A stretch of 63,630 nucleotides of DNA, counting the filler, from Rhizaria sp. SCN 62-66 (lineage: Eukaryota), in the NCBI GenBank assembly GCA_001724265.1. It is 3 parts of 3 records of this genome, joined end to end, with 100 filler letters (N's around TTAATTAATTAA, not from the genome) between each part and the next. Parts side by side here need not be neighbours in the genome. Positions count along the whole stretch, not along the records: positions 1 to 23,556 come from MEDY01000428.1; 2 more parts are not named here. One strand, 5' to 3'. A model generated the notes under the pieces. The model had not been told where the DNA came from and searched no databases. It saw nothing but the letters and a program-made list of their open reading frames with translations. Shown here piece by piece: positions 12,126 to 54,926 of the stretch (positions are counted from its first letter, which is position 1; each line of letters opens with the position of its first letter). Both the position numbers and the translations under genes were made by a program.

Positions 12126-15100
12126 ATGCTGTCCTCGCTTGCCGCGCGGCGTTTGCGCCTGATGCGCGCGCCTCTGCGCAGCTTTCCGCGCATGGCCACC
12201 GGGACTCGGCTCTTCTCGTCCGCAACCCCGGCGGGCTCGGCTGGCGCCGCCTCTGCGCCGCCCGACCTGGTGACGATGCAGTGCCCGGTTCCGATTCCCG
12301 CGGACGCGCAGCGCGCGCTGGACGCGCTGCGCGAGGCCGCCGAGCTGCACTGTCCCGGTCTGGAGCTGCGCGTCGCGGGCGGCTGGGTGCGTGACCTGCT
12401 GCGGCTGGCGCCGGAGTTCCGCTACGAGCATAACGGCGCCCGCGACGCGCTGCCGGAGGAGTACTTTGACTGCTTACGTGACGCCGACGCCGCAGCGCTG
12501 CTCGCGCAGGCCGAGGCCGAGATGATCACCGCGCGCGCCAATCATGAGAGCGGTGCAAGTGGCTGCTAGGACGACGACAGTGAACCGCCCCTGTACCCGC
12601 CACTGCCGCCTGACGCGACGCACGACGAGCTCATGGCCGCGTCTCTCTCCTTGCACCCCGCCTCGGATTCCGCCGCTGCCGCTGCGGTTGCTGCAGCTCT
12701 GCGCGCCGCGAGAGAGCGCGTGCCCCGGTCCGCGCTGCGCTTCCCCCGCGCGCCGCCGTGCCCCGCCGTTGACGTCTCCGCCCTATGCGCGCATTCCGCG
12801 ACCTCTGCGTTTACAGCGGCTGCGTGTGGACTGGGCGACGTGGACGTTGCGCTCAGCTCTATGACGGGACAGGCCTTCCTGCCGCATCTCGCAGCGTACG
12901 CCGCCGCGCGCGGGCTGCCGTGCCGCATGTCGACGGTCGAGTCGGACGCGGCGACGAGCCGTCACCTGGCCACGTGCCGCGGTTCCTTCGCGGGCTTTGA
13001 CGTCGATCTGGTGAACCTGCGCAGCGAGACCTACGCGGCTGACGCCGCGCACCGCGTGCCGACTGCGGCCGCCATCGGGACCCCGCGCGAGGACGCGCTG
13101 CGCCGCGACTTCACCGCCAACGCGCTCTTCCTCAACCTCCACACCGGGCTCGTCGAGGACTGGCACGGTGGCGCGGGCCTCGCGGACCTGCGCGCGGGCG
13201 TGCTGCGGACACCGCTGCCGCCACTGCAGACCTTTGCTGACGACCCGCTGCGCGTGCTGCGCGTCGTCCGCTTCGCAGCGCGCCTCGGCTTCCTTCCCGC
13301 GCCGGGACTCGCCGCCGCGGCCGCGACGCCTGCGGTACGCCGCGCGCTGGCCCGCAAGGTCTCGCGCGAGCGCGTGGGCATCGAGCTCGCCAAGGCGCTC
13401 GAGGCGCCCGCAGGCAACCTCGCCTACGCGCTCGCGCTGCTGCGCGCGTTGGGCACTGTGGACGCGGTCGTGCCGCGCGCGGCCGTGCGTCGCTTGGCCG
13501 CCGCAGTGGTCGCTGCAGAGGGCGCGGGCTCCGGCAAGAAAGTGAAGGCTGCGCCGACCTCACCGTCGCCCTCCACAGCGACAGCTGAAGGCACGGCAGC
13601 TGCTGCTTCCCCCGCAGGCGCCTCTGCCGCGCCGCCGGGCGACAACACCGAGGATCTGCTGGCCGCCGCGGGGCCGGCCGGCGTGGCGCGCGCGCTGCAG
13701 TCGGCGCCCAGCAAGCGGCTGCACCGGCTGGCCATGCTGCCGGGCGTGTCGGCGCCACCGCCGGGCGCGCGGCCCGCGTGGCGGCGGCGGCAGTGGGCGC
13801 GCGTTGAGGCCGTGGCCGCCGCGGTCGAGGCCGAGCTGGCCGCGTGGCAGCGAGACGACGCGGCGCTGCGCGCGCTGCTGCCGGTCACCGCGGCCACGCG
13901 CAGCGCGGCCGTGCTCGCGGCCATGGCGGACCCGCTCGTCGTTGACTACGCCGCACTACTCACAAACTTCCAGCAGACGCAGACTCAGGCGTAGACACAG
14001 ACACAGACGGCACGCGGCGCGGTCGACGACAACGCCGCTGCGCTGGCCGCACTGGGTCTACCGGCTGCGTTCCCGCTGCCCGTGCCGTGGTGGCGGCCCG
14101 CGCCCGCGCGTTCGCCGACGGCGCTGCACGCGCTGCACGCGCTGCTGCCGCCGTTCCTCGCGTCACCGCCGCCGCTGGGCGCGCTGCCCGCCGACGTTAC
14201 CGAGGGCCACGCCGCGCTTGCGCAGTCTCTTGCCCGCGCAGCCGCGCTCGCCGATGTCGGAGTTAGCAGTCAGGGCGCGGCTCGCATCATCACGGCGCCG
14301 GCGCGCAGGGGCGTGCGCGTGGCCGTGGCCGACGCGGCGCAGTTCTCCGGACTTGGCGCCATGGCTACGGGCGCGGCGGTGGGCGCGAGCGCGACGGCGA
14401 CGGCGAGCGCGACTGCGGACGCTGTGACGCCGCTCCGCGCAGTGGCGACGCTCGCCGTCAACGGCGCGCTGCGGCGCCCGCTGGCTGACGGCGACGCCGC
14501 CGCGCGCGCCGCGCAGGGCGGGGCCTGGCTCGCCGACACGGTTCCTGCCTGGGCCGCCGAGGTGGCTCGCGCGCGCGATGCGAGCGTGAACAACGCTGGC
14601 GGCGCTCAGGCGGTGGAGCAGCAGTCGGAAACGCTGTGGGGCCGCGCGCTGTCGCAGGCGCGCGCACTGAGGGCCGCGGGCAGTTTGTCCGCCTGGCGCG
14701 CGTCATCAGCGCGCAACGAGACGGGAGCAAGCGCGACTACGACCTCCGATGACAGCAGTGTTATGCACGCGTTGTTCACGGGCATCGCCGCCTGCGAGCG
14801 CGCGCGCGCCGCCTCCGAGTCCGCCTCGGCCGCCGCGCGCTCCGCCGCCAGCGTCGCGACGGCGGTCTCGCGCAAGGTCGACGCCCCGCGCCGCGCCGCG
14901 CTCGACGCCGCCGCGGCGGCCGCGCGCGCCGACGCTGACGCCGCGGCCGCCGTTCACGCCGCCGCGGAGCGCGCCGCGTTTGCGGGCGCCGTGCTGGAGA
15001 CTGCGCTGCCCGCGGAGCTCATGGCGGCCGCCGCGCTGCTGCGCGGCGTCGGCGCGGAGGGGCTTCCGGCCGCCGCGGCGCTCGCCGTCGCGGCTACTGG

Positions 15101-15533
15101 CGTTGGCAGGACCAGGGGCGGCGGCGGCGGCGGCGCGGTGAACGTGGCGGATGCGAAAGTGTGCACTGACAGCGGGCTGCGGGACACACTTCAGCGCGGA
15201 GCTGTGCGGAGGGAGGACATCAATGCACTGCTGCGCGAGCTCGACGAGACGGGGCTGCTTGCTCTGGCGCGGGAGGCTGGCCCCGCCCCAGCCTCCAGTG
15301 AGGTAGCGGTTGCAGACGGCGTTTCCGTTCCCGGAGCCGCTGGCAAGGACGGTGTCGCGATCGTGGCCGCCGTGGGCGCTGCGGTCCGCACGGCGGGCTG
15401 GACCGGGGCCACACGCGCGGACGTCGCTTTCGCCGTGCAGGGCGTCAGCGACGTGATGTCCGTGCTGGCCGCGGTGCTGCCACGGTTTGACGCGTCGGAG
15501 GCGCTCGAGGACGTCGCGGGCTGTCTTCGGTGA
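12126..15533 (+). CDS. CCA1: Class II tRNA nucleotidyltransferase (CCA-adding enzyme), 1135 aa if TAGs at 12567-12569 and 13992-13994 are read as sense; likely mitochondrial presequence
   Basis: Track ORFs at 12126, 12633 and 14082 share one frame and are separated only by single TAGs. Motifs RVAGGWVRD, GDVDVAL, VNLRSETY, EDALRRDFTANALF, DDPLRVLRVVRFAARL and KVSRERVGIEL; Arg/Leu/Ser-rich, acid-free N-terminus; ends TGA. Confidence 0.85.
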
Positions 15534-16069
15534 GAAAATCGCGATGACCCTGTTTAACACGGTTTCGCGGGTTTCTCCGCGGTATATATTTAAGTCAATT
15601 ATTTATTTTGAAATATGTTATATAGTTCTACTAGGGATATTGCATACACTAGTTAAATTTCAAATCACGTGAACATCTACCGATTTTCAAGTTGTTTCAT
15701 GCCAAGGCGATGCAAGAACTGGTGCACAGTTTTTCCGCTATCGGTTGGTGGGAGGTCAGTCAGCCACCTGACTGAGCGCGAAACACCCGTCGATTGCCAT
15801 CCTCTCGCCTTCTTCACTGCATCCTTACGAGAACGTGTGATTGAAATTGGGTAATTTGCACACTCTTATTGTACTGATATTTAATTTTCAGCCTCGGATT
15901 ATGACATCATATTCCGCATATCAACTCCAAACATCTGGCAGATGTTTGACTAGGGTCTCCCTAACTGGCACTCTCACGCGATTCAAAACGCTTCATCTTC
16001 CTTCGCTGCGATCTGTCTTACCATCTATCCCCGGTTTTCCCCGCATGACATCTACTTAAATACGTAGTC

Positions 16070-17899
16070 ATGTCGTCCAAGGCCGCGACCTCGTCGCGCT
16101 CTGGCCGCTCTTCTGCCACTGGCCGTAGTCGCGCCGTGTCCCAGTCCCCTGCTCGCGCTCCCGCCGCCCGCGGCCGTAGCCAGAGCCGCGCGCGCCCCGC
16201 CGCCCGCGCCACTGAGCCCGCATCCGAGGACGAGGAGGAGGCCCCTAAGAAGCGTGCTTCCCGTGCCAAGTCCCCCGCGCGCGCCAAGTCGCCCGCCCGC
16301 GCTAAGTCGCCCGCCCGCGGCAAGTCGCAGGCCCGCGCTAAGTCCCCTGCGCCGGCCAAGAAGTCTTCCGCCAAGGCCAAGTCCTCGGCCAAGTCCAAGT
16401 CGCCCGCGCGCAAGCCCGCGTCGCGCTCCTCTGCAGCTGCGAAGAAGGACGAGTCCGAGTCCGAGTCCGAGTCCGAGGCCGAGGAGGCTCCTAAGAAGCC
16501 CGCGGCCAAGAAGAGCTCCACCAAGGGCGCCGCGCCCGCAAAGTCGGCCTCGGGCAAGAAGGCCGCCGAGCCGGCCCCGCGCCGCTCGCGCCGCTCTATG
16601 GGCCGCGCCGTCGATGAGGAGGAGGAGGAGTCCGAGGCTGAGGCCGAGAAGCCCGCCCCCAAGAAGTCTTCCTCCAGCAAGTCTGAGGAGCCCTCGAAGC
16701 GCTCGTCGTCGACCGCGCGCACCGCCTCGCGCTCCGGCCGCACGTCCAAGGCCGGCGAGGTCATTGCCGCCATCAACGCCGTCTCCCGCTCCTCGCGCTC
16801 CTCCGCCGCTGCCGCCGAGTCCCCCGCCGCCGCCGCCGCCGCGGCCGAGGGCACTGACGAGGTTCCGGCCGAGGTCGACTCGTCCGCCGGCGTACTCGAC
16901 GCCAAGGAGGCCCCCTTCGCCGTCACCTGCGCCTCCGCGGGCTGGTTTACGCTCGCGGCCGTGCTGGGCTACATTGCCCAGGTCGTCGTCCTCCTCTCGC
17001 TGTCGCCCGCCGCCAAGAACCTCTTCCGCCACTGCGCTGCCTGCTGCCTGCCCGCGCGCGTGATCGAGCGCATCGTCGCGCCCGTGTATTCGCCGCTCGA
17101 GCTCACCGTTGTTGTCGCCATGCTCCACGTCTTCGCCACCTTCGCGCTCAAGCACGGCGCCGCCGTCGCGAACCCCGGCTCGCGCTTCGCCCAGCGCGTC
17201 GCCGTCGTGCTCTCGCGCGCGCTCGCGGGCGTCTTCGCTGCCTGCATCTTTGTTCACCACATGCGTCACGCCGACCCCACCGCCGCCTCGGCCGCGCAGG
17301 CGCTCTTTGTCTACTCGCTCGGTTTCGCCGTCCAGGACCTCGTCGCCAACTTCTGCATCTCGTCCAACGCCAACAAGGCCGAGGCCGTCATCTCCGTCGC
17401 CGCGCTCAGCTACCTCGTCTTCTTCGCGCCCTCCGCCGCCGTCGCCGCCGCTGCCGCTGCCGCTCCCGTCGCCGCTCCCGCTGCCGCTGGTGCCGCTGGT
17501 GCTGGTGCTGCTGCCGCCGCCGCCGCCGCTGCTGCTGCCGCAAAGGCCAATGCCGTCTCCGTCGCCGCGCCCGCGCTGATCGTCAAGGCCAACGTGCCCG
17601 TGTTCGTGGTGCGCGCGCTGCAGGCCGTGCTGCTGGGCCTTGTGCTCGTGGGCTCCGTCGCCTCGGGCAACAAGTCCGCCGTCGGCCGCGCCGTCTCGGC
17701 CGCGTCCATCGCGCTGGGCTGGATCTACCTCGTCGGTTCGCTCGCGTCCGTCGTGTACATCGCCTACGTCGACTTCGTTGTCCACGGCGCCACCGTCCTC
17801 GCCTCCGGCTGCGCCACCGCCGCCACCGGCTCCGCACTCGCCGTGCTCGCCGTCCTCAGCGCGCTCAACTACGCTGACGGCTTCTTCATCGGCAAGTAA
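16070..17899 (+). CDS. Multi-pass membrane protein with a long basic Ser/Arg/Lys/Ala-rich (histone H1-like) N-terminal half
   Basis: 609-aa ORF with strong codon bias; RAKSPA repeats, then about 7 hydrophobic segments from roughly aa 290; stop TAA. Confidence 0.8.
   Translation: MSSKAATSSRSGRSSATGRSRAVSQSPARAPAARGRSQSRARPAARATEPASEDEEEAPKKRASRAKSPARAKSPARAKSPARGKSQARAKSPAPAKKSSAKAKSSAKSKSPARKPASRSSAAAKKDESESESESEAEEAPKKPAAKKSSTKGAAPAKSASGKKAAEPAPRRSRRSMGRAVDEEEEESEAEAEKPAPKKSSSSKSEEPSKRSSSTARTASRSGRTSKAGEVIAAINAVSRSSRSSAAAAESPAAAAAAAEGTDEVPAEVDSSAGVLDAKEAPFAVTCASAGWFTLAAVLGYIAQVVVLLSLSPAAKNLFRHCAACCLPARVIERIVAPVYSPLELTVVVAMLHVFATFALKHGAAVANPGSRFAQRVAVVLSRALAGVFAACIFVHHMRHADPTAASAAQALFVYSLGFAVQDLVANFCISSNANKAEAVISVAALSYLVFFAPSAAVAAAAAAAPVAAPAAAGAAGAGAAAAAAAAAAAAKANAVSVAAPALIVKANVPVFVVRALQAVLLGLVLVGSVASGNKSAVGRAVSAASIALGWIYLVGSLASVVYIAYVDFVVHGATVLASGCATAATGSALAVLAVLSALNYADGFFIGK
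16261..16350 (+). repeat. Coding tandem repeat of about 5 x 18 bp (RAKSPA units)
   Basis: Translation RAKSPARAKSPARAKSPARGKSQARAKSPA. Confidence 0.85.
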
Positions 17900-18647
17900 G
17901 TGCGCGCGGCTTAACTTCCATGTGAGTGTCGACGACGCAACGACACCACATACTCTCACCGGACATGCGTCGCCCAGCACCCGCGCTTGTGGCGAGTGCT
18001 TGGTTTGCTTTGGGCGTCTGGCCGCGCGCGACAGTGCTGCGCGGACGCTTTCAAGCGTTTAACGACAAAACCACTTTTGTCGTTAGTACTCTTCGTTCTC
18101 CCGCATCTTCTCCCTTTGTCTCTTTCAGTCTCTGTCAGTCTCTGTTTCTCTCAGTCTCTGTCTGTTTGTCCGCCCGTCGGTCGCTGTGCGCGGCGCCGGG
18201 CGCGCTGGCTCGCCTTGCAGCGAATCGCGCGCCTGTCACGCCCGCCGCGCACAGTGCCGCCGTGCTGCGGCTACCCTCAGTGCTGCTCCCGCGTTTGGCG
18301 ACGCCTCTTTGTTGGTGTCACTGAATGTCCGCGCATGCGCTGAACCGCAATACATTCATTGTTTAATTCACACACACTCCATATTTTTGGAATGCTAGAT
18401 CTTATTGTAATATGAACATGAGTAACATAGAGATGGAAATGTCATTGATGTATTGCAGCGATGACGCGCTCCAGATGGAAAGAGCGCGTGTCTTCTGAGT
18501 ATTTAAAGATAAAAGAGAGCAAACTTGTTTGTCTTTGTTTGAGCGTTCATAAAAGCGCGTAAAAAATCAACTCTGTACTTTGGGAATTGAGCATATCATA
18601 CTATTGCAGTGTGTTTGCGTAGTGCGTTGCGTGTGATGTCAACGGAC

Positions 18648-20614
18648 TTAGGGCTTGGTGAGCGACATCGACAGTGACATTGCAAGCGACGGCGACCGCG
18701 AGCGTCCCCGGCCACCAACGTTGGCTCCCGACTCAACCCCAGCCTGAATGTTGCTCCCAGCGGCGGCGTCCTCCTCGTCGGCGTCTGCGCTCGCACTAAA
18801 GTCGTCGCAGCCATCGCCATGCTGACTGTACTAGTCGGAGTAGTCGTTGATGTGGATCTCCTCGTGCGAGACGTCCTCGGAGACGATGTCGCCAGTCTGC
18901 ACGCGCACCGCAGTCGCCGCAAACAGCACTGGGGGGCCTTGGTCTGCCATATTATGCGCCGGCGCAGCGTCTTGCGCGCGCGTTAGCGTTGCGCTAGTGT
19001 TGGCGTCAGCGGGAGCGTCGTAAAACTCAGGCGACGTTGCACCTGTGATCGCGTTCGTGTTGAACGCGTTGTTCACGTTGGCGGGCGAGGGCGGGCCGCG
19101 CGGATGCGGGGGCGTGGCCTGGCCGCGGCCGATCCACTATTGGTGCGGCGAGACCAGCTCATCGTCACCGTCCGCGTCGGCGTTGTGTACGTTCTTCACG
19201 GCAAGAGCGAGCTGGCGCTACTACTCGTGGCGCTCTTGGAGCCCCGCGAGAGGAAGCACAGGCACTGCGACAGCGGCGCGGCCGTGGCCCGCCTGAAACT
19301 GTGAGTGGAGTTGACTGGGCGGAGGAAAGGAGCTCTCCGGGCTCGTCAACACCTCGACGTCGTCGAGCTCGCCCGCAAGCTCAGCGTCATCGGGATGCGC
19401 GGCCTCAACACCGGCATTCCCAGCAGAGTGGCGCACATCGTCTTGTGCAGCGTTGTCCTCGAAATCGGCCTCGTAGTCGTACTCGTTGCCGTTATCAGCG
19501 AAACCCGCGTCATCGTCGTCGTTGGCGCCGAGAGGGCCACTCGCTACGTTGGGCACAGAGAGTGCGCTCACGCCACGGTCGTCAGTGTAGCCTGCACCGT
19601 CTTCTGCCTCAACGGCTGCAGCGTTCGCGGAGTCCACATTTTGCGTGCTCTGCGCCTACGTGACCGGCTCATGCACACCGACGGCGGCGTGGGCGTCGCC
19701 GTTGGGGTGGGTGTCGTAGTCGTCGTTGCTGTTGAACAGGTTGCTAACGAAGGCCGCGGCGCCGTCGCCGTTGCTATGGTCGTAGTTCCGACCGTCGCGC
19801 GCCTCAGCGCTCTGCGCGCCGGCCTCCGCCCCAGCCCTCGCCTCGGCCTCATCCTGGGCCTACGCGTCGTCGATAGTGCTGTGGTGGTCCACGGCCGTGT
19901 GGAAGGCGTTCTGCGCGCTCACGCTCACCTAGACGCCCGTGTACTCGGCCTCAACGTCAGCACGGTCATCGTCGTCGTTGCCATCGTTCTCGACCGTGCT
20001 GATAGCTTCCCCATCAACGGCTCCAACACCAGCGTCAACATCAGCGTCGGCGTCGACATCGTCGTCGTGCTCGCCGTCGTCCTCGTCGTCGGGCTCGACC
20101 GTGTGCCACCCGCCGGCGCTGCCGTTGCCGGCGCTGCCGCCGGTGCCGAGGCGCGAGCGCGAGTACGACACTGACGCCGACGACGGGGAGTTGTTCAGCG
20201 CCGCCGCAACCGCGGTCGAGGCGTCGCCCGTGCCCACAGACAGGCGCGTGCGCGAGCCGTGCGCGGCCGCGGATGCGGCGGCGGCGGCCTCGGCGGCAGC
20301 CGTGGCGGCGGCGACAGCGGCGGCAACAGCGGCCGAGAGCGAGGGCCGCTGCAGCCCCTGGTGGAAGCGCGGCGCGGGCGGCGAGTTGAGCGGCGACGGC
20401 GGCTCAAAGTCGGCACTAGCGGCAGCGGCGTCGCCGCTAGCGGGCACGGAGACGTCCAGACCCTTGAGTGCGGGGGCAGACTCGGCAGGCGCGGCAGCGG
20501 AGGCAGAGTCATTCGACGCAGGCTCGGGCACGACCGACGCGAGCACTGCGGCGACAGAAGCAGCAGCAGCGGCGGCAATGGCGGCGTCCTCGACAGACGC
20601 ACTCTGCTGCTGCT

Positions 20615-20647
<33 letters not shown>

Positions 20648-23555
20648 TCTCATGCTGCTGCGGCTGCTGTTGGGGCTGCGGCTGCGCGCGCACTGCGGCG
20701 AGCGCTGCGGGCACCGGCGCCGCGGCAGCCGCAGCAGGCGCGGGCGTGCTGGGCGCGGCCGCCGTCGTCGCTGCGGAGCCCAACGCGGACTGCGACGCAG
20801 GCAGGCCCGCAGCGGCGGTGCTGTGCGCGGCGGCCGCGGCGCTCGCAGCGGTGGACGGCGCGCCGCGGGCGGACTGCGGGTACTGGCGCTGCTGTTTCTG
20901 CGCAGACGCAGGCGCGGCCCCGATCGTAGCGGCCGGCGCAGGGGTGTACGCATGCTGCTGCTGCTGTTGCTGTTGCGGTTGCGGCGGCTGGCGGTTGGCA
21001 GACACAGGCGAGTCGAACGCGTAGTGCGGCGAGTTCTGCTGCGGTTGCTGCTGTTGTTGGTTGGCGTGCGCCACAGCCCCGTCGTCGGCGCTGGGCGGCT
21101 TATACTGCGGCCAGTCGCCGGACCCGCCGAAAACGCTGCCATCACCCGCGATCGTCACAGGCGCGGTCGCCGCGGAAGCACGCGACTGCTGCTGCTGCTG
21201 CTGCTGCTGCAGCGGGTGCTGTTGCGGACCGGGCAGAGGCAGCGGTAGCGGCAGCGGCTGCGTGTCGAAAGACGCAGAGTACGAGTAGTCGCCGGCGTTG
21301 GGAGCCGGGGCTGCGGGGTGGTTCGGGCTGAAGCCGCCACTGTAGCTGTAGCCGTTGCCGTGGCCGAACCCAGCTCTTCCGCCCTGCTGCTGTTGCTGCT
21401 GCTGTTGCTGTTGCTGTTGCGAGTTGGCCAGCTGCTCCTCGAGCTCCACGATGCGGCGCACCGCGGCGGAGCGCAGCGCCTCGTACGCGCGCGTCACGGT
21501 CGCCTCGCCCTCGGGCGCTGCAGACGCGGACGTGGACACCGTCGCAGACGAGGCCGCCGCGTGCGGCGCGTGCTGGGCCGCGTGCGGCATGTGCTGGGCC
21601 GGGACCGGGGCGGCGACAGCGGCTGCGGCGGCGGGGAGGCGCCAGTGGCTGTAGCGGTCCTCGGGCGACTGCAGCGGCTCGCCGCGCGCGGACCGTGGCG
21701 TGGCCGATGCCGGGCTGGCCGAAGAGGCCGCGGGCGCGAACGCGGTCAGCGACGCGTGCGTGGGCGCGTAGGTGTACGGCGCGGGCCTGGGCGGGCTGGC
21801 GCCGTGCATCGCGCGAAGCTTGTGCTCCATGTGCGCGAGCTGGCCCCGCGCGGCCGCGGCCTCGGCCGTCGCGGCATCGGCGCGCGCGGCGGCGGCGGCG
21901 GCGGCGCGGTCGGCGTCGTCGGCGCGGCGCTCCCACGCGGCGGCCGTGGCGCCGCAGCGTTCCAGCTCGTCGACCACGGCGCGCGTCTGCCCGGCCCACC
22001 CGGCGGCCTCGGCGCGCGCGCGGGAGAGCTCCTCGAACAGCTCCGCGGCGCGTGCGTCGGCGGCGCGCGCGCGGTCCGCGACGCCCGCCATGGCGCGCTG
22101 CGCGGCGAAGGCGGCTTCGTCGTTGCGCCGCTCCGTAGCCTCGCGCCGCAGCCGCTCCTCGACCAGCGCGGCCTCACCCGCGGCCGCGCGTGCGCTCGCG
22201 TCGCCGGCCTCGCGCGCCAGCGCCGCGGCGCGGGTCTCGGCCGCCTCCAGCGCCGCGGCCAGCACCCCGCAGCGCGCGGCCGCGGCCTCGGCCTCAGAGG
22301 CCGCAGAGCGCACGGCGGAGCACCAGCTGTTCTCCGCCGCGGCCGTCGCGGTCGCGGCCGAGGTCGCGGCGTCGGCAGCAAGCGCGCCCGCTGCGGCCTC
22401 GGCGGCGGCGCAGCGAGCCTCGGCGGCCAGACAGCGGCGCTCGGCGGCCTCGGCGGCCTCGGAGAGCGCGGCACGCTGCTGCGTCAGCAGCGACGCCTTC
22501 TGCACCAGCGCGCCCGTCTCGGCGCTGCGCTCAGCCAGCGCGCGCGACAGCAGCTGGCAGCGCGCGAACAGCTCGCGCTCCAGCGGCGATGACAGCGCCG
22601 CAGCCAGCGGGCCCGCGGTCTGTGCGCTCTCGCCAGGTGTGGCGCTGCTGCGCCCGGGCGACAGCGCGGTCGCGGAGCCCGCGCCGGCGACGGGCGCGTG
22701 TAGCGCGAGCGACAGCGGGGCCAGCTTAGCGGTCAGCGCCACGGCGCTCAGCCCGGCGTTCGCATCCCCGGCAGCGCTCTCGACGTCCTTGGCGGCGGCT
22801 GCGGCGGCGGCCGCGGCCTCAGCGGCGGCGGCAGCGGCGGCGGCGGCGGCCTCGAGCTCGTCCTTGAGCGCTGCGCGCTCGGCCTCGAGCATCGCCACAC
22901 GGCCCGCGGCCTCGGCGGCGCTCGCGGCCACGCGCGCCTCGGCGGCCTCCTCCGCGGCCGCCAGCTCAGCCTCAGCGGCGGCGCTCGCGGCGCGCGCGGC
23001 GGCGGCCTCGGCGCGCGCGTCCTCAGCGGCGGCCTGCGCTGCGGCCGCGGCAGCACTTAGCTTAGCCTCGCGCTCAGCGGCGTGGGCGGCCTCGACACGG
23101 GCGTCCTCAGCCGCGGCCTCAGCGGCGGCTTCGGCGTCCGCGGCGGCGGCCTCAGCAGCCTCCGCGGCGTCGGCCTCGGCCCTGCGCGCGGCGGCGGCCT
23201 CGAGCTCGGCGAGCCTGCGCGCATCGGCGAGCTGCTCGCGCACCGCGGCCGTCTCGGCCTTGGCACCCGCCACGGCCTGCAGCGCCGCCGCGGCGTCCCC
23301 GCGCGCGGCCGCAGCCTCAGCGCGCGCCTTGATCGTCTCCTCGGCGGCCTCGGCGGCGACGGCCTCGAGGCTCTCGGCGGCCGCGTGCGCCTCGGCCAGC
23401 GCCCGCGCGGCCGCCGCAGCCGCCGCGTCGCGCGCGGACACGGCGTCGGACAGGGAGAGCACGCGGTCCGCCTGCTGGCCGGCCGCCCCGCGCAGCGCGT
23501 CCAGGTCGCGCACGGCCGCGTCGCCCGCCGCGCGCGCGGACTCGGCGGCGGCCTC
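18648..23555 (-). CDS. Large coiled-coil, low-complexity protein, 5'-truncated at the gap, with 7 in-frame TAG codons in its C-terminal 428 codons
   Basis: Track ORFs 19929-23513, 19221-19637 and 18831-19076 share one frame. The only stops between the gap and TAA (18648-18650) are TAGs at 19929, 19860, 19656, 19221, 19218, 19137 and 18831 (lowest coordinate of each). Ala/Glu heptad region, polyQ tracts, acidic tail. Confidence 0.8.
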
Positions 23556-23556
23556 G

Positions 23557-23656
23557 NNNNNNNNNNNNNNNNNNNNNNNNNNNNNNNNNNNNNNNNNNNN
23601 TTAATTAATTAANNNNNNNNNNNNNNNNNNNNNNNNNNNNNNNNNNNNNNNNNNNN
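23557..23656. other. Artificial assembly linker (44 N + TTAATTAATTAA + 44 N)
   Basis: Exactly 100 nt; the 12-mer puts TAA in all six frames; identical to the linker at 47191-47290. Confidence 0.97.
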
Positions 23657-28595: not shown

Positions 28596-30380
<1,785 letters not shown>

Positions 30381-47190: not shown

Positions 47191-47290
47191 NNNNNNNNNN
47201 NNNNNNNNNNNNNNNNNNNNNNNNNNNNNNNNNNTTAATTAATTAANNNNNNNNNNNNNNNNNNNNNNNNNNNNNNNNNNNNNNNNNNNN
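47191..47290. other. Artificial assembly linker (44 N + TTAATTAATTAA + 44 N)
   Basis: Same 100-nt structure as 23557-23656. Confidence 0.97.
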
Positions 47291-47443
47291 GACGCCGCCA
47301 AAAGCGCGGCCCGCGGCGGGCGCGGCCGGGGCGGCGCCGGGCGCGGCGCCGGGGCGGCGGACGGGCGCCGCCGCGCCGGACGAGGGAGCGCCGGGGCGCG
47401 ACGGGCCGCTCGAGGGAACGCCGGGGGGAACTCCGCGGCGCAT
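47291..47443 (-). CDS. Probable 5' end of a gene (MRRGVPPGVPSSGPSRPG...) running into the gap
   Basis: ATG at 47443 at the shift from AT-rich to GC-rich DNA; frame open to the gap; too short to identify. Confidence 0.45.
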
Positions 47444-48376
47444 GCTGCTGAGTGGGTGCACGGGGCAAACGCAAACAAGGATACAGGGACGAAGGGTGAC
47501 AGAGTGTGCATGAGTCGGATGAGAAGTGTGTGGTGTGAATGCAGATTGGTATTTGGGAAGATATTAAATCATTTTGTTAATATTCAAAACAGCAGCTATC
47601 TATTCAAAATGGTCTAATTTCAATATGACAGGCGCAAGATGCAGAGCGGAACTTTAGATTCAAACTCCCCACATCTCACACCCGTTGTTGTGTGTGCAGC
47701 TGGCTCGGTTCGCAAAAAATTGTCAGCCACTGACCGCTCTCGGCCCAACCGACCGGATGCAAACTCAAAGGAGCGAAATGCAATAATAAACAGGAGGTAT
47801 CTCTGTGAACTTGCATCTGTAGACTCAAAGAAGACTCCTTATATGCGTATTAGATCTAGTATTAACTAAGTCCAAGAAGGTCTTAGCTTGTCTGCAGCTT
47901 GAAGCCGGGACTTTGAGGTCAAACGCAGGATTAGAGGCCGCCCAATTTGGCTTGGGACGTTGTCGGTCGGCAACCTAGAACAGTATGATGGAAACCATAC
48001 GGACCGTGACATGACCTTGTTTTTGTTTCCCCAAGTACACCGAGTTGTTTTTTGTTTTTGTTTAAAATGGTTTCTTCCTATGCGCAAAGAAATTCCGTCT
48101 TTTGACACCTTGAAAGGGCTGAACATCAACCCTCACCTCGTGCACGACTGAGTTCGACTTGTAAACCGTTTTGTTCGTGTAAAATCCCCATGTTTTGATC
48201 TTTAAACAACTTATTCACTTACAACTATACTATTCATATACTTTCTCAACTTTTATTTTTAAACTGGCGCCATTGATGCACTCAAATCTCTCTCTTTGTT
48301 GTTCGACCACGACTTCTTGATGACGAAACGACTTGCACGCCCACCCTGTCGCCGCCCCCGTCCAGCCGTTCTACTC

Positions 48377-51265
48377 ATGGGCGACAAAAAAATGCATTTG
48401 CTGACAAAGCTTGGTATTGCCGCACTTGTCCTCGGTCTTGTCGTTTTCATTGGCGGACTCGTTGGCTCTGGTGTCATCCTTCGGAAGGCCAACACCGTAC
48501 GTTTTGCTTTTCACCTATGTCGTTGTGACGCCCTCTCTCACGCTCGCCCCCACGGTCACCCTTGCCGTGATGACCCTGCTGTTTGCTCTTCTGCTTCTTA
48601 ACGCTCTCTGCTATATGCGCGCCCATTCTTCATTTCTTATCTCGCACGTTGTCCCTCTCCTGCCTCTTTCTGCTTCCCCTCGCCTCTTCCTCGGACTCGT
48701 GCCCCTTTTGTTCCATCTTCGTGTTCTTCAACGCGCAGAGCCTACACGAGGCGTCCCAGCTCCCCATCCCCTCCGAGTCAAAGTACGCGGAGTTTACCGA
48801 CACCGACGTACGTTCCTTTTTGTCGTCATTATCGGCAACAGCAGCGACAGCAGCACTTGTGTTTTCGCCGTTTTCAAGTGCCATTCAAACGGCAACTTTG
48901 CACAAAACATCTCATATCACCCTCTGCTTTCACATCTTTATGTCCAAAATCACTCATTTTGACTCGTTTGTTTTCTTTTTTACTCAATCATCTCTTTATC
49001 TTCTTTTTTTCGTTTCTGTCCTCACCATTTTGTGTCTTATGTTGTCTTGTTCTTCTTCTACCACTTGAATATGTACACATTTAACCTCCTCAGAACGCTA
49101 ACGTGGCGCGGTTGTACTACGACTACACGTTTTTCAACATCACTAACGCAAAGGACGTGGCGCTCTCCAACGCTGTGCCCGAAGTCAAGGAAGTCGGTCC
49201 TTTCTCCTACGTCGAGTTCTGCCGCCGCCGCGACGTCGTCTTCAACTCTGACAACAGCCAAGTCGAGTTCTCCGAGATGTGCTGGAAGGAGTTCCAGCCC
49301 GACCGCTCAATCGACGCCCTCACCGGCGAGCAGCTCTCCGATTCGCAGCCAATCATGACGTTCAACTTCGTGCTCTACGGCGCGCTCGCCAAGACGGGCC
49401 TCCAGGGCAAGGAGTCGTCGTTCAAGCTCGCAGTCATGTCCACCGTGTTTAAGTCCCTCGCGCTTGCCGCGCTCTTCGGCTCGACGGCCGCCACGCAGAA
49501 CTACGCCATGTACTGGGGCAACAGCGCGGCCGTCAAGGCCGGGTTCACCTGGACCGCGTCCGGCAACTTCCGTGAAGTGCTCTCCTCGGTCGCCGGCAAT
49601 GACATCGGCTTCATGTTTGAGTACGACCTCTTCTGGGCCACGACCACCGACGCCACGGCCGTCGCCTACCGCACCGCGCTCACGGGCAGCTCCGACCCGG
49701 TGACGACGTCGTTCGACAACGCCACGGCCAACGCCATCATGTTTGGCGACTACGGCCTCACCAAGACTTTCGCGGCGCCCACTCCCTTCGAGTCACTCGG
49801 TACCATCCCCGGCACACTCTTCATCGCCGCCTGCGTCTCCAACACGGCCTACCCCGAGTACTGCAAGAGCTACTACGGTTCTTCGATGACTGCGGCCGAC
49901 ATCACGCGCCTCGGCGTCTACCTCAAGTACGCGTCGATCATGTACCTCTCTGCGGCCTTCACGGCGCAGGGCGCGACCAACTTCGGTCAGGAAGCCGCGA
50001 ACCACTACTTCCTCACGCGCTCGGTCCGCGAGCTGCTCTTCGCGACGCCCGTGGACCCGCTGGCCTCGCGCCTCGGCTCGCCGTCGCCGGGCTCCTACTT
50101 CAGCTACACTGACTGCCCCGCCGAGTACAAGGCCGCGCACGCCGCGGGCCGCGCGCTGGACCCCGACACGTGCGAGACTGAGTGGCGCACCACAACCAAC
50201 TTCGCGCTGCGCTTCCGCGAAAACACAGGCCGCAGCGACCCCGAGAACACGGAACAGCTGCTCAAGTGGAACTCGCTCACTGCGCTGCCGAAGCGCAACG
50301 CCACCGCCGGGACGGGGTACTGGTGCTCGGGCGACGTGCCCATCATGGGCCGCCGCAACCCCAACGGGCCGCCCGCCACGGTCGACTGGGGCCGCTGGCG
50401 CGTCGAGTCCCAGGTCGCGCGCGACGACTTTGTCATGGAGCTGTGGAACTCCGAGGTGCTGCGCAACGTCAAGTTCAAGAAGACTGGCGAGAGCCACGTC
50501 AAGGGCGTGCCTGTGCTCGTGTTTGGCGTCGAGGAGTCGATGCTCGAGGTCGATCCCGTGCTCGACGTGGAGGACTACGGCGTCTTCAACCTCGCTTGCC
50601 CCAAGGGTGTGCCGTTTTCCCTCACGCATCAGCGCTTCATGCGGACCGCGTTCCTCAACGACAGCAGCGTCCAGCTCCCCGACGGCATGCTGCCGTACTC
50701 ATCAAAGAACGAGATTCTGCTCTATACGGAGCGCTACACGGGCAAGACGGTCGATGCCAAGCTAAAGCTGCAGCTCAACTTCGACATCCCCGCGGGCATC
50801 CCGGGCATCTCACACCTTTACACCGCGTCCGCCGCCGACGCGACTGACAAGCGCCGCATTTTCCCGCTGGCGTACCTCACCAAGGGCGCAACGCTGACGG
50901 ACTCGAACGCGAGCGACCTCAAGGCCGTCAACAACGTGCTGGGCAACGTCGTGCTCATCGTGTTCGTCATCGGCTGCGTGGTGGGCCCGCTGCTGATCAT
51001 CGCCGCCGTGGTGCTGCTCTTGCTGGGCCGCAAGAAGAGCCAGGAGGACGGCAACCGCGAGCCCGACACGCCCTCGGGTGCCAACAGCCAGAGCAGCCCC
51101 GACGAGTTCAATGGCAGCGTCAACGGCAGCGTCAATGGCAGCATCGCCAGCAGCGGTGGCAAGCAGGAGATCCAGCTGAATGCGGTCTCCTCCTCGGCGT
51201 ACGCGCCCCGCGGCACCGACGGCGACGTCGACGCCGAGGGCCAGGTGCTCTTCCGCGCCGACTAA
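48377..51265 (+). CDS. CD36/SCARB/LIMP-2 family scavenger receptor class B protein
   Basis: Exons 48377-48496, 48739-48807 and 49094-51265; both introns GTACGT...CAG. N- and C-terminal TM helices; motifs YTFFNITN, PEVKEVGPFSYVE, FLTRSVRELLF and ERYTGKTVDAKLKLQLN; stop TAA. Confidence 0.88.
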
Positions 51266-53402
51266 GGGACAACAAGACAGACACGCGTGATAAAAGATAA
51301 GACAAGACAAAACAACAACAGTTAGGCAGTGCAGCCGTCGAGTATACTATTTGTGAACCAACGGAAAGCAAGGCGAATAGCGCAGCAGTGCGAGTGTAAC
51401 TGTGTGTTGCACCGCAATGCTGTGACTGAGTCTCGGTCTCGTTGTCGTCTCATTTATACGTGTGTATAGCTGGCTCACTGTCTCTGGTCTCAGTATGGTC
51501 TACCGAGTCTGTGTCTGTGTCTGCGCGATTATTTGTATCGTTTGTTGTTTTTCGATTACGTTTATGTTTGTTTTGTCGACACTTACTTACTTTTCGTTTA
51601 TCGTACTGTACGTTTATTACCTTCTGACTGTTAAGTGATCTCTTATAATATCCCTCTAATTTTCACAACTGTGAAAATTAATCATAGTATAATTACTACA
51701 CACACGACAACACTCCGCCTCCACCTTGACTTGTTTGTCAAAATCGCAGGTTTAGGAACAACTTTGTTCTGTTCAAGTACTCGGGTTAACTTTTCGCGTT
51801 GACCGGATGCAACAATTCAGTTCCTAGATTTGTCGTTTTTGTCACAAAGGTGTTTTTTTTTTCTCCTTCTTCTCTCAGTGTCTATGTCGTTCACAGTGCA
51901 GCGCAGTCTTTCTATTTCAGTCTCAGCAATAATATTCGCTCAGCATCAACAGCTCCAACAAATACTAGCAACAGCAACAACAACAGCCACTTGTGAGCGT
52001 GCGGAATGTAACGTCGTTGTTCATCGCACGTTTCGCTTCGCACAGTGAGTGGCACAGCTGTTGATGTATGCCCATGTACAAGTACAACTTAGACTGCGTT
52101 TTCCTTACTCTATCAAATCTTGTAATTGTTTCTTATTTCGTTGTCGGTACCTATTGCCCAAAACCATCATAACAAACATAATAGCAATAGTTACATTTAA
52201 CAACAACTACCGCACTACGACATCTAACTTGAACAGCAAATTCATCGTAGCAGCAATAGTGAACAAAAAAATGTAATACCTGAACAAATCACGACACTAG
52301 TGCGTGTGTCACTCTGTCACACTGCACTGTACTTCCGTGTTGCATACGTATCATAACCGTGCAACGCTACGTGCTGTGTCTTTGTTGTTTTTTCTCTTTA
52401 CCATCTCTCTCTCACTGCATCTGAGTTCGTATGAATGCATGCACCCGCTTCTAAAGCCTACAGATCTCACTCCCGCAGTGTCCTTCAGTCTCTCACTCTC
52501 TCTCACAGCCTCAAAGTCACACATGTGTCGCGGTCACAACTCTGCCCTGTCTGCTGCCTAGCCCTGCACTGTTCCACTCCGTCTTGCCTTAGTTCCTGCT
52601 TGTGCCTTACAGCGCTTCGCTTTCTCCCGAAACCGACTGACCGACCGACCGACCCTACACTCATAGGGGGGAGTTGCCGTCTACAGTCTCGGGAGCAGCG
52701 GCGCGCTCAAACGGGCTAACGGCGGAATACAAGGCGCGGAGTGGAGCTACAGTGGCGACAGCGACAAGTACAGGAAGACTGTCGCTGCGATCGAGTGACC
52801 GTTGTGTCTTTGTTTGAGGGCTGTCTGTCACTGCGGAGGGGTGTACGGGGCTGCTCATAGTGCGAGGGATGGTCGACCGTGATTCTCCTATAATAATGAC
52901 TAAAGCTTGACTTAAAACATTATCCGTTTTCTCAAAAGTCTATATCCACCATATTTTCCTTTTTTAAACAAACAATACATCTATCGCTTAAATACACCGA
53001 AATCTACGTCTGCATTGCTCGTGTACTAGTATAAATATCCCAAATGGCGCCGTCGCTGTGGCCTTGTGTTGTCTGCGTGGTATGGCGAATTTCAGAATGC
53101 ATCGATATATATCCATGAGACTTGAGAATTCAAACAATTTTCTAGTTTTTTCAGAGATTTAAGTTGATAAAAACTTCCAGAGAAATAGAATTTATGTACA
53201 TAGTGTAAGTTAAAATTATTTTTAATGTGGTGATATCAATTTATTCTCTATTTTTATTTTACATTTTGACGGCGCCCCTCAATTTTTACACTATTTCGCA
53301 GGATTTATAGAATACAACAGAGTCAAATTCAACTTAAATTGAAGTCAATTATATAGATAATTAATTTTTACACAAATCAATTTAGTTAGATCGTTTAGAA
53401 TC

Positions 53403-54926
53403 TTATTTGCGTGTATTAACCCGTTTCGCGAGCGCATCGTCGAGTGCCTGCCGCAGCCTCTGCACCGCTGCGACGTTGGCATCGCTCTCAACCAGCAAAC
53501 TCTGCGTCGCATCCGGCTTCACACGCGTCTCCTGCGTTGAATTCGCCGCATTACAACGCAAAGGAGCGTGGAAAGCACGCTTTTCCCGCGCCCTGACAGC
53601 CTCAACAAGACCACACGCGTCAGTACCGTCTTTCACACTGCTGCCGCTCCCACTGATTCCGTTGCGATTCGCGCTCGCGCCACGAGCAACAGCGCGCGCC
53701 TCGCGCTTGGCGGCGTTAACGGCGGCGTAGTACCGCCTGAACCGCCTGCGCAGCGCGCGCGCGCGTGCCCAGCGCTGGATCTTGACCGCAGCGGCGAATC
53801 GCCATAGCCGGCGGCCCTCGCGCAGGCGCAGTGCATCGTAGGGCGCGGCGCGGCACACGGGGCAACGCGGGGGCGCGCCGCGCTGGGTCTGGGCGCGCTC
53901 GTACGCCACCACGCACGACTGCGAGAGGAAACATACCGACAGAGAGAAACGCAAGGAGAGTGGCATGAAGCGACATTTTAGAGTGAGTTTTGGTGCATAA
54001 ATCGAGTTGATCAAAATAAATCTGCGCAATTTTAAGGTAGATGTCATAATACAGATCTATAAACTGGAATACAAAAACATAAATGCAAACGTGAGGATGT
54101 GCACGCGAATATCACGGTTAATAGGCCGTACCTCGTGAAAGACGTGGGCACACGAGAGGAGCAGCTGGTCTTCGTTGGGGCCATATCCAGACTGGCAGAT
54201 GCCACACATAAGGTCGAACCCGGCCGCAGCAATCGCGTCAGCGCCACGCACGCCCTGCTGCGCTGGTCTCTGCTGCTGCTGCTGCTTCTGCCGCGAGTGT
54301 GTATGTGTATGTGTATGTGCGTGTGTGTGTTGATGTGATTGTTGTGCCTGTGCCTGCGACTGTGAAGATGCAGGTGCGAGGCCAACGCGCCGGAGCCAGA
54401 GCGCCCGTACTTGCGCCCACGCCGTCGCATCCAGCCGTGCACCGTCAATACAGCCTCCCGTGCCAGCAGCTGCACTGCCGTTACTGATTGTTCTGTCACT
54501 GGTGGTGGTGGTGGTACTGCTGCTGCTCGTGCCAGCGAAAGCAGCAGTAGCAGCAGTAGCCGGCGGCAGCGCAGGTCCCATGCCCACGCCAATTACGCCG
54601 CCATTCGCAACAGAGACTGCACTGGTGTTTGGAGCCGTGTTGCTGCTGCTGTTGCTGTTTGCAGTGCGGGGAGGTCCAAAGCGAACTGAGCCGACGAGAC
54701 GGCCAGAGCCGCCTGCCGCGGCGAGGTTGCGGCGAAGCATTGTGGCGCTAGCGGCGGCAAGCCCGGCGTCGGCGTCGGCGGGACCGGCGCCGAGCGAGCG
54801 CGCGCCCGCGGCTGACAGCGGGCCTGTGCGCGCTGCGGGGCGCGTGTAGGTCGTTGCAGTGGCGCGCGAGGCGGCCGAGGCGCGGGGCGGCGGGGCGCCG
54901 TAGGACGGGCGCGGGTGCGCGGACAT
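53403..54926 (-). CDS. RNF32-like RING finger plus IQ motif protein
   Basis: Exons 54926-54132 and 53918-53403; intron GTACGG...CGCAG. Splicing restores the RING CGIC...LLSCAHVFHE|SC...CPVCR, followed by the IQ motif AAVKIQRWARARALRR; stop TAA. Confidence 0.82.

What the first reader, a model, noticed from the sequence alone, without database searches (positions are those of the whole stretch)
18648..19931. Seven in-frame TAG codons and no other stop over 428 codons: probable nuclear UAG-to-Gln reassignment with UAA kept as stop
Seen: the minus-strand frame that the ORF track ends at TAG 19929 continues with the same coding-like, Asp/Ala/Glu-rich composition through TAGs at 19860, 19656, 19221, 19218, 19137 and 18831. 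It closes at TAA 18648, where AT-richer DNA begins. Contexts read naturally as Gln: DDA*AQDE, VT*AQSTQN, ERHE**RQL, SPHQ*WI, SD*YSQH. Known: UAA and UAG usually change meaning together, and UAG-only nuclear reassignment is rare (e.g. Gln in the fornicate Iotanema, Leu in an uncultured rhizarian, a few ciliates). Inference: this GC-rich, apparently aerobic genome with 100-300 nt introns resembles neither a fornicate nor a typical ciliate, so this may be an independent case. The Gln assignment rests on local context, not on conserved alignment columns.
Basis: partly seen in the sequence, partly recalled or inferred. Interest (0 to 1): 0.95.

Follow-up and report, generated by a model that had tools for sequence, protein, structure and literature searches.

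The report
In-frame TAG codons, probably read as sense
In an uncultured GC-rich wastewater protist, two genes carry in-frame TAG codons inside sequence that otherwise looks fully coding, which suggests that TAG is read as an amino acid (perhaps glutamine), but the missing genome-wide proof leaves this open.

Summary
The minus-strand frame 18648-19931 has 7 TAG and no TGA or TAA until TAA 18648. Contigs from two other metagenome runs reproduce the TAGs without a difference.

The tail is gene-like. Its codon-usage score matches real genes and turns negative only after TAA 18648. Simulated neutral decay gives at least 7 TAG with no other stop in at most 0.4% of trials.

A second gene, a CCA-adding enzyme (12126-15533 +), has two in-frame TAGs. 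One lies between two catalytic motifs. None of 14 other genes ends in TAG: 10 end in TAA and 4 in TGA.

Against a plain genome-wide reassignment:
- 11 other ORFs (11,696 codons, 358 Gln codons) hold no TAG.
- No tRNA is in the window.
- No genome is held.
- No homologue covers a TAG site.

Gln is favoured only indirectly.

Verdict: TAG is probably translated, unevenly. My confidence is about 0.6. The main rival is truncated or dead ORFs under the standard code, at about 0.2.

The parts
19932..23556 (-). Upstream part of the ORF. It is Ala/Glu-rich and poly-Gln and has no Pfam family. Its 5' end is cut by the contig end (an N linker starts at 23557).
   Evidence: 1208 codons with 72 CAG, 12 CAA and 0 TAG.
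19929..19931 (-). First in-frame TAG, where a standard-code ORF ends.
   Evidence: The codon score is 0.42 over the 40 codons before it and 0.60 over the 40 after, and GC after it is 0.72.
18651..19928 (-). A 426-codon coding-like tail (Asp/Asn/Ala/Glu-rich) with six further in-frame TAGs at 19860, 19656, 19221, 19218, 19137 and 18831.
   Evidence: It has no homologue except the organism's own fragments P0004 and P0005. A contig from a polyA RNA library covers 18955-19455 with 0 differences.
18648..18650 (-). TAA, the likely real terminator. AT-richer DNA with a negative codon score follows.
12126..15533 (+). CCA-adding enzyme / poly(A) polymerase-family gene, from ATG 12126 to TGA 15531-15533, with two in-frame TAGs.
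   Evidence: (PF01743, E = 5.7e-14).
12567..12569 (+). In-frame TAG inside a 139-residue GC-rich insert between the GGWVRD motif and the DVDV catalytic motif.
   Evidence: The codon score is 0.45 before it and 0.39 after. An X4 contig covering 12450-13290 has 0 differences.
13992..13994 (+). In-frame TAG in the CAG slot of a six-unit CAG-ACN (Gln-Thr) repeat. It is followed by 512 more gene-like codons that end at a TGA.
   Evidence: None of the contig pieces listed covers it.

Best explanation
In this organism UAG is not a dedicated terminator. It is translated, most likely as glutamine by a tRNA with anticodon CUA or by strong near-cognate reading. UAA and UGA end the genes. On this reading the ORF runs from the contig end (23556) through seven TAGs to TAA 18648, and the CCA-adding enzyme gene is read through two TAGs.

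Use of the codon is sparse and very uneven: 2 of 16 genes in the window. That fits either a reassigned codon that is decoded poorly, or an ambiguous codon that competes with release factor and is tolerated mainly in dispensable, disordered parts.

Shown: the TAGs are real, the flanks are gene-like, and no gene here ends in TAG. Inferred: that TAG is translated, which amino acid it gives, and the mechanism.
For: 1. The tail has the codon usage of real genes. In 30-codon windows 13 of 14 score 0.19 to 1.16 and one scores -0.08. Real genes average 0.54. The score falls below 0 only after TAA 18648, as it does after true stops.
2. Neutral-decay simulations starting from the tail's own codons give at least 7 TAG with no TAA or TGA in at most 0.4% of 1,500 trials, at every divergence from 0.02 to 1.0. 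At the divergences that yield several TAGs the mean score would drop to about 0.1-0.2. The observed mean is 0.466. No frameshift occurs in 427 codons.
3. The CCA-enzyme gene has TAG 12567 between residues that align to positions 81-96 and 102 onward of a solved plant enzyme, 9kma. One polypeptide must therefore span the TAG. Known introns here are AT-rich with GTACG...YAG ends, whereas the insert is GC-rich and coding-like.
4. The 14 other genes end TAA x10, TGA x4 and TAG x0. P = 0.044 if TAG's usual share were 20% (my arithmetic).
5. 6 of 7 TAGs have a Gln codon within 3 codons, against a 22% baseline (P = 0.0005; 5 of 6 with P = 0.003 if the tandem pair counts once). TAG 13992 replaces CAG in a CAG-ACN repeat.
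6. The TAGs are identical in runs from other studies and in a JGI contig. Three of them lie in a contig from a polyA RNA library.
7. Very uneven use of in-frame stops among genes has a precedent in Amoebophrya sp. ex Karlodinium veneficum, where about half of the genes carry them (PMC12005148, passages read).
Against: - TAG is absent from 11 other ORFs: 11,696 codons with 358 CAG/CAA. The same ORF has 0 TAG against 84 CAG/CAA upstream of 19929, and 7 against 18 downstream (Fisher p = 1.6e-5). That sharp change is just what a true stop at 19929 would give.
- In lineages with a confirmed UAG reassignment the codon is common in conserved genes, for example 384 in 71 genes of the rhizarian exLh (PMC5304391, passages read).
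- No TAG here lies in a conserved column.
- The window holds no tRNA and no Rfam match.
- No genome is held, so tRNA(CUA) and eRF1 could not be checked.
- Absence of TAA and TGA in the tail is weak evidence, since only 1.6 are expected.
- 0 of 14 TAG terminators is weak if TAG is normally rare in this lineage.
- The RNA-library contig could derive from contaminating DNA, and it would equally fit a long 3' UTR.
Confidence: 0.6

Rival explanations
1. The standard code applies. TAG 19929 is the real stop. The 1.28-kb tail is the relic of a formerly longer ORF, now a long 3' UTR, and the CCA-enzyme locus is a young pseudogene. With this codon bias almost every new nonsense codon is a TAG.
For: - TAG use changes sharply exactly at 19929: 0 of 84 upstream against 7 of 25 downstream.
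- 11 other ORFs hold no TAG.
- Composition alone predicts TAG:TAA:TGA of about 5:1:0.5 in this frame, so 'TAG only' needs no special code.
- The tail has no homologue and looks disordered, so it may be dispensable.
- GC3 is somewhat lower in the tail, 0.77 against 0.87.
Against: - Simulated decay reaches at least 7 TAG without TAA or TGA in at most 0.4% of trials. It does so only at divergences of 0.2-0.5 per site, which would lower the codon score to about 0-0.2. The observed score is 0.466.
- No indels were simulated. At that divergence several frameshifts would be expected (general knowledge), yet the frame holds for 427 and 1135 codons.
- The first 91 tail codons keep GC3 at 0.88-0.96 and still hold 3 TAGs.
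- It needs two such loci among 16 genes, one of them normally an essential single-copy enzyme.
- None of the 14 true terminators is TAG.
Confidence: 0.2
2. The TAGs are removed at the RNA level. This could be editing (A-to-I turning UAG into UGG, as in sexual-stage filamentous fungi, or U-to-C giving CAG) or unusual GC-rich in-frame introns. The mRNA would then have an ordinary open frame under the standard code.
For: - It is specific to TAG and would explain why only a few genes carry them.
- A tandem TAG-TAG (19221/19218) recalls the edited tandem UAGs of the Fusarium PUK1 kinase.
Against: - The contig from the polyA RNA library covers 18955-19455 with 0 differences, so TAG 19221, 19218 and 19137 are unchanged and unspliced there. 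DNA carry-over cannot be excluded.
- No credible joint was listed over the tail.
- The only GT...AG pair framing the CCA insert spans 401 nt, which is not a multiple of 3.
- Known introns here are AT-rich.
- Clustering with Gln codons points to a CAG origin rather than TGG.
- The organism has a fused DHFR-TS, which is not the fungal arrangement as I recall it.
Confidence: 0.07
3. It is chance. A GC-rich non-coding stretch happens to be free of TAA and TGA in one frame.
For: Only 1.6 TAA plus TGA are expected in this frame. GC-rich DNA gives many long spurious ORFs: 102 ORFs of at least 200 aa in the window.
Against: - The frame has gene-like codon usage and periodicity in every segment.
- True non-coding flanks score below 0.
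- Amino-acid composition continues across 19929.
- The other two frames of the strand score much lower, at most -0.07 at the listed TAGs.
Confidence: 0.03

Closest known systems
UAG-only stop-to-sense nuclear codes: Iotanema spirale (UAG = Gln) and the rhizarian exLh (UAG = Leu) (PMC5304391, passages read); Hartmannula sinica and Trochilia petrani (UAG = Gln) and an uncultured phyllopharyngean ciliate lineage (UAG = Leu) (PMC11687900, abstract read)
   Same: Only UAG appears in frame. UAA is the preferred terminator. Gln is a plausible meaning. The organism is uncultured and known from sequence data only.
   Different: In those lineages UAG is frequent in conserved genes and aligns with conserved Gln or Leu columns, and suppressor tRNAs were found in some. 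Here there are 9 TAGs in 2 of 16 genes, none at a conserved column, and no tRNA or eRF1 data. The genome is GC-rich with AT-rich introns of about 140-220 nt. It is neither fornicate-like nor ciliate-like, and it has no close relative in the databases searched.
Ambiguous, context-dependent stop codons in Amoebophrya sp. ex Karlodinium veneficum (PMC12005148, passages read)
   Same: Genes split into those without in-frame stops and those with many. Essential genes are among the carriers. The stops are not edited out.
   Different: That species uses all three stops in frame, in about half of its genes (13.6 per carrying gene). Here only TAG is used, in 2 of 16 genes, and UAA and UGA behave as clean terminators.
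Truncated ORFs and unitary pseudogenes under the standard code
   Same: An ORF with premature stops, an orphan disordered tail, and a sharp change at the first stop.
   Different: There are no frameshifts, one stop type only, and undecayed codon usage. Two loci in 63 kb show the same signature.

Membership tests
UAG-only stop-to-sense nuclear code | In-frame UAG inside coding sequence of many genes, including conserved ones | tested here: inconclusive
   There are 9 in-frame TAGs in 2 of 16 genes. There are none in 11 other ORFs of 11,696 codons. Only 63 kb is available.
UAG-only stop-to-sense nuclear code | UAG is not used as a terminator; UAA and/or UGA end the genes | tested here: met
   The 14 other genes end TAA x10, TGA x4 and TAG x0. 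Every true stop is followed by a negative codon score and lower GC. Every TAG-ended ORF listed is followed by a positive codon score (0.09-0.60) and GC of 0.64-0.76. The sample is small.
UAG-only stop-to-sense nuclear code | UAG positions align with a conserved amino acid in homologues | tested here: inconclusive
   The tail has no homologue among 1.84 billion representatives except its own fragments. TAG 12567 lies in a lineage-specific insert and TAG 13992 in a low-complexity repeat. The only support for Gln is indirect.
UAG-only stop-to-sense nuclear code | A cognate tRNA with anticodon CUA | not testable with these tools
   The window holds 0 tRNA genes and 0 Rfam matches. No genome is held. 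The organism is absent from genome contigs and viral contigs.
UAG-only stop-to-sense nuclear code | Altered eRF1 stop-recognition motifs | not testable with these tools
   eRF1 is not in the window and no genome is held.
UAG-only stop-to-sense nuclear code | The UAGs are present in mature mRNA and are translated | tested here: inconclusive
   One contig from a polyA RNA library covers 3 of the 7 TAGs unchanged. Contigs show no RNA ends. DNA carry-over is possible. There are no protein data.
Ambiguous codes with no dedicated stop (Amoebophrya, Condylostoma type) | All stop codons also occur in frame as sense | tested here: not met
   No in-frame TAA or TGA has gene-like sequence on both sides in a real gene frame. 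The TAA and TGA rows in the listing have further stops in their flanks, or lie beside an intron, or in the antisense frame of another gene.
Pseudogene or decayed ORF relic | Mixed lesions (frameshifts, several stop types) and eroded codon usage | tested here: not met
   The frame is constant over 427 and 1135 codons, only TAG occurs, and the codon score is 0.466 against a gene mean of 0.54. Simulated P is at most 0.004.
Stop-loss mRNA editing (UAG to UGG) | RNA differs from DNA at the TAG | tested here: inconclusive
   The RNA-library contig over 18955-19455 shows 0 differences. It is a consensus contig of low depth (3.6) and may be DNA.

The most novel reading that the evidence does not exclude
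A deep, unsampled, GC-rich protist lineage from activated sludge is caught at an early or ambiguous stage of UAG reassignment. UAG has already been purged as a terminator. It is read, probably as Gln, in competition with release factor, so it survives only in dispensable disordered tails and inserts. This would be a natural 'ambiguous intermediate' of a kind not documented for a UAG-only change.
Probability: 0.25. Interest if true: 0.85.

Novelty: new member of a known kind. Interest (0 to 1): 0.62.

Why it matters
UAG-only nuclear reassignments are few. They are known from one fornicate, one rhizarian and some ciliates (PMC5304391, PMC11687900). An independent case in a GC-rich non-ciliate with no close sequenced relative would add a data point on how UAA and UAG can be uncoupled.

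The sparse, uneven use seen here could also show what an early or ambiguous stage of codon capture looks like.

There is a practical side too. Standard-code gene callers already cut this organism's proteins into pieces, as the fragments P0004, P0005 and P0006 in public protein sets show.

If the rival is right, the case is an ordinary truncated gene. It would then be a useful warning that in GC3-rich genomes almost all nonsense codons are TAG, which mimics a code change.

Tried and rejected
- **Whole genome:** none is held.
- **tRNA and Rfam scans of the window:** both empty.
- **Earlier findings of the scan:** nothing found by place, by words or among relatives.
- **Comparative test for selection on the tail:** not possible.
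  - The JGI metagenome scan returned only an identical contig.
  - HMMER against 1.84 billion representatives returned only the organism's own fragments.
  - The runs laid showed no variant at any TAG.
- **Finding more of the genome:** the genome-contig scan gave 80 unrelated loci at 30-59% identity and none from this organism. The viral-contig scan gave nothing.
- **RIP-like hypermutation:** rejected. CpA o/e is 1.03, TpA o/e is 0.71 and (CA+TG)/(AC+GT) is 0.94 in the tail.
- **Duplicated or repeated origin of the tail:** no repeat family lies in 18648-19931 among those listed.
- **Intron removing TAG 12567:** rejected. The only plausible GT...AG pair spans 401 nt, and the insert is GC-rich, unlike the two clear introns.
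- **TAG in the RING-finger gene (54057, minus strand):** it lies in an AT-rich in-frame intron and is not a sense codon.
- **TAG just upstream of the SNF2 gene:** it lies in the 5' leader, immediately before the ATG.
- **Giant-virus origin:** considered because of a paper on alternative codes in giant-virus MAGs (PMC13524828, passages read). The gene content is cellular and no viral hallmark gene was seen.
- **Taxonomic placement:** failed.
  - The best named hits for the CCA enzyme and for DHFR-TS are a mix of fungi, oomycetes, algae and plants at 40-53% identity.
  - The Atlas search gave only the protein family.
- **Read laying at 90% likeness:** it drew many false joints from GC-rich DNA of other organisms (side 20-31 letters). 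I disregard them.
- **Parts without listed contig cover:** 12417-12449 in both X3 and X4, and 13982-14059. These are no finding.
- **One row ('up 19932-23555'):** it was computed in the wrong frame through my slicing error and is not used. One search gives the right frame.
- **Literature search for a UAG reassignment in activated sludge:** 0 papers. A search for eukaryotic MAGs with code changes gave 2 papers, both on giant viruses.

Full report
**What the window is.** The 63,630 bases are three contigs joined by N runs around a short all-frame stop spacer, at 23557-23656 and 47191-47290. The genes are eukaryotic. They include:
- a fused DHFR-TS with an AT-rich GT...AG intron;
- a RING-finger gene with an AT-rich in-frame intron;
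- an SNF2/RING/zf-PARP protein, an AGC-type kinase, a CD36-family protein and an RSN1/OSCA channel;
- a nucleotide-sugar transporter, a prefoldin subunit, a TFIIA-like protein and a CCA-adding enzyme.

Coding DNA is 70-80% GC, and spacers and introns are 30-55% GC. The DNA occurs in bioreactor, wastewater and activated-sludge metagenomes from several studies. No close relative exists in the protein sets searched. The best DHFR-TS hit is 44-45% identical and the best CCA-enzyme hits are about 50% identical over the conserved domain. No whole genome is held.

**The observation.** It is correct as written. The minus-strand frame from 19931 down to 18648 reads TAG at 19929, 19860, 19656, 19221, 19218, 19137 and 18831, and ends at TAA 18648. 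The other five frames carry 3-21 stops of mixed types.

The TAGs are not assembly artefacts. Contigs of run X3, from another study, cover 18105-18870 and 18843-20500 without a difference. A contig of X4 covers 18602-19820 likewise. A JGI contig is identical over 18113-20771.

**How surprising it is.** 'No other stop' is less surprising than it looks. This frame has little T at position 1 together with A at position 3. Independent position-specific frequencies therefore predict only 1.08 TAA and 0.50 TGA in 426 codons, but 5.0 TAG. The informative point is that TAG is not avoided in the tail (6 seen, 5.0 expected). In contrast, 10 solid genes (10,488 codons) have 0 TAG where 104 would be expected from composition.

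**Is the tail coding?** I built a codon log-odds score from 11 solid ORFs against their other five frames.
- Real genes average 0.54 per codon in 40-codon windows.
- The 14 windows of 30 codons in the tail score -0.08 to 1.16, and 13 of them score at least 0.19.
- After TAA 18648 the score is negative in 5 of 6 windows (-0.44 to -0.17, one at 0.15), as it is after the true stops of other genes.

GC periodicity keeps the same phase in every inter-TAG segment. The first 91 codons after 19929 still have GC3 of 0.88-0.96. The acidic, Asn-rich composition starts about 60 codons before TAG 19929 and continues across it. By every sequence criterion available, the reading frame ends at 18648 and not at 19929.

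**Could it be a dead tail?** I simulated neutral substitution from sequences drawn from the tail's own sense codons. I used two equilibrium GC values, two transition biases and seven divergences, with 1,500 trials each. At least 7 TAG with no TAA or TGA occurred in at most 0.4% of trials. It occurred only at divergences that would pull the mean score to roughly 0-0.2, against the observed 0.466.

Indels were not simulated. At 0.2-0.3 substitutions per site several frameshifts would be expected from general knowledge, and none is seen. There is no RIP-like dinucleotide signature.

**A second gene.** The CCA-adding enzyme gene (ATG 12126 to TGA 15533, plus strand) has in-frame TAGs at 12567 and 13992.

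In the alignment to a solved plant enzyme (9kma), query residues 98-113 (the GGWVRD motif) match positions 81-96. Query residue 258 onward (the DVDV catalytic motif) matches position 102 onward. The two motifs of one catalytic core are thus in one frame, separated by a 139-residue GC-rich insert that carries the TAG.
- The insert scores as coding.
- The only GT...AG pair around it spans 401 nt, which would break the frame.
- The two clear introns of this organism are AT-rich with GTACG...YAG ends.
- An X4 contig confirms TAG 12567.

TAG 13992 sits in the CAG slot of the fourth unit of a six-unit CAG-ACN repeat. It is followed by 512 further gene-like codons, without any stop, up to a TGA and an AT-rich spacer.

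**Terminators.** Fourteen other genes end in TAA (10) or TGA (4), and none ends in TAG. Each true stop is followed by a negative codon score and GC of 0.29-0.67. Each of the four TAG-ended ORFs listed is followed by a positive codon score (0.09-0.60) and GC of 0.64-0.76. If TAG normally ended 20% of genes, 0 of 14 has P = 0.044 by my arithmetic. That is suggestive only.

**What speaks against a plain reassignment.** Use is extremely uneven. There are 7 TAG against 18 CAG/CAA in the tail. There are 0 against 84 in the same ORF upstream (Fisher p = 1.6e-5) and 0 against 274 in ten other genes (p = 1.2e-8).

In established UAG-sense lineages the codon is common in conserved genes. The rhizarian exLh has 384 in 71 genes, although its ribosomal protein genes often lack it (PMC5304391, passages read). 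A sharp switch at 19929 is what a real stop would produce.

A partial precedent for strong gene-to-gene unevenness is Amoebophrya sp. ex K. veneficum. About half of its genes carry many in-frame stops and the rest carry none (PMC12005148, passages read).

**Which amino acid?** No TAG lies in a conserved column. The tail has no homologue, and the CCA-gene sites lie in an insert and in a repeat. Two indirect points favour Gln, or at least an origin from CAG.
- 6 of 7 tail TAGs have a Gln codon within three codons, against a 22% baseline (P = 0.0005; 5 of 6, P = 0.003, with the tandem pair counted once). Gln stands out most among the 14 residues tested, though this is not corrected for the 14 tests.
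- There is the CAG-slot TAG described above.

Both would also fit nonsense mutations of CAG.

**RNA.** A contig from a polyA metatranscriptome (X5) covers 18955-19455 with no difference, so three TAGs are present, unspliced and unedited, in that library. Contigs cannot show RNA ends, and DNA carry-over is possible. This fits both a coding tail and a long 3' UTR. It speaks weakly against editing.

**Verdict.** The lesion spectrum is nine TAGs, no other stop, no frameshift and undecayed codon usage, at two loci in 63 kb. No gene here ends in TAG. Together these make 'TAG is translated in this organism' the best reading, at about 0.6, with Gln the likeliest meaning.

The uneven use suggests poor or ambiguous decoding rather than a mature, freely used codon. 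The standard-code reading (a truncated ORF plus a pseudogene) keeps about 0.2. RNA-level correction keeps about 0.07 and chance about 0.03.

His 'UAA kept as stop' should read 'UAA and UGA kept as stops'. The decisive data lie outside this window: the full assembly, tRNA(CUA), eRF1, polyA sites and peptides.

Noticed in passing
window 23557-23656 and 47191-47290: Two linkers, each 44 N, a 12-base all-frame stop spacer, then 44 N. The window is three separate contigs (1-23556, 23657-47190, 47291-63630). The ORF under study is therefore cut at its 5' end, and gene order across the linkers means nothing.
   Followed up: yes
window 12378-12840 (+): The CCA-adding enzyme has a 139-residue GC-rich insert between the GGWVRD motif and the DVDV catalytic motif. 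In a solved plant homologue these motifs are 5 residues apart. It also has a 512-codon Ala-rich C-terminal extension with no homologue.
   Followed up: partly
stop codons of the genes listed: 12 of 14 true terminators are followed by G at position +4 (TAA-G or TGA-G). The other two, the SNF2 and TFIIA-like genes, have C. This is a strong termination-context preference.
   Followed up: no
window 17579-17793: Run X4 holds a contig that differs from the window at 16 of 215 positions in the 3' part of the gene at 16049-17899. A related strain, species or paralogue therefore exists in that sample, but nothing comparable was listed over the TAG-bearing tail.
   Followed up: no
window 53940-54130 (-): The RING-finger gene has an AT-rich intron of about 190 nt that happens to stay in frame and contains a TAG. 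Read naively it looks like another in-frame TAG, but it is intronic (GTACGG...CGCAG).
   Followed up: yes
window 29604-29741 (+): The fused DHFR-TS gene is interrupted by an AT-rich intron of about 135 nt inside the conserved thymidylate synthase domain. The fusion argues against an opisthokont or amoebozoan origin (a recalled rule, not tested here).
   Followed up: partly
window 13909-14195: Word depth in X4 jumps to 128 over the CAG-ACA repeat, and loose ends continue the repeat. Similar microsatellites from other organisms pile up there, so the listed contigs break at TAG 13992.
   Followed up: no
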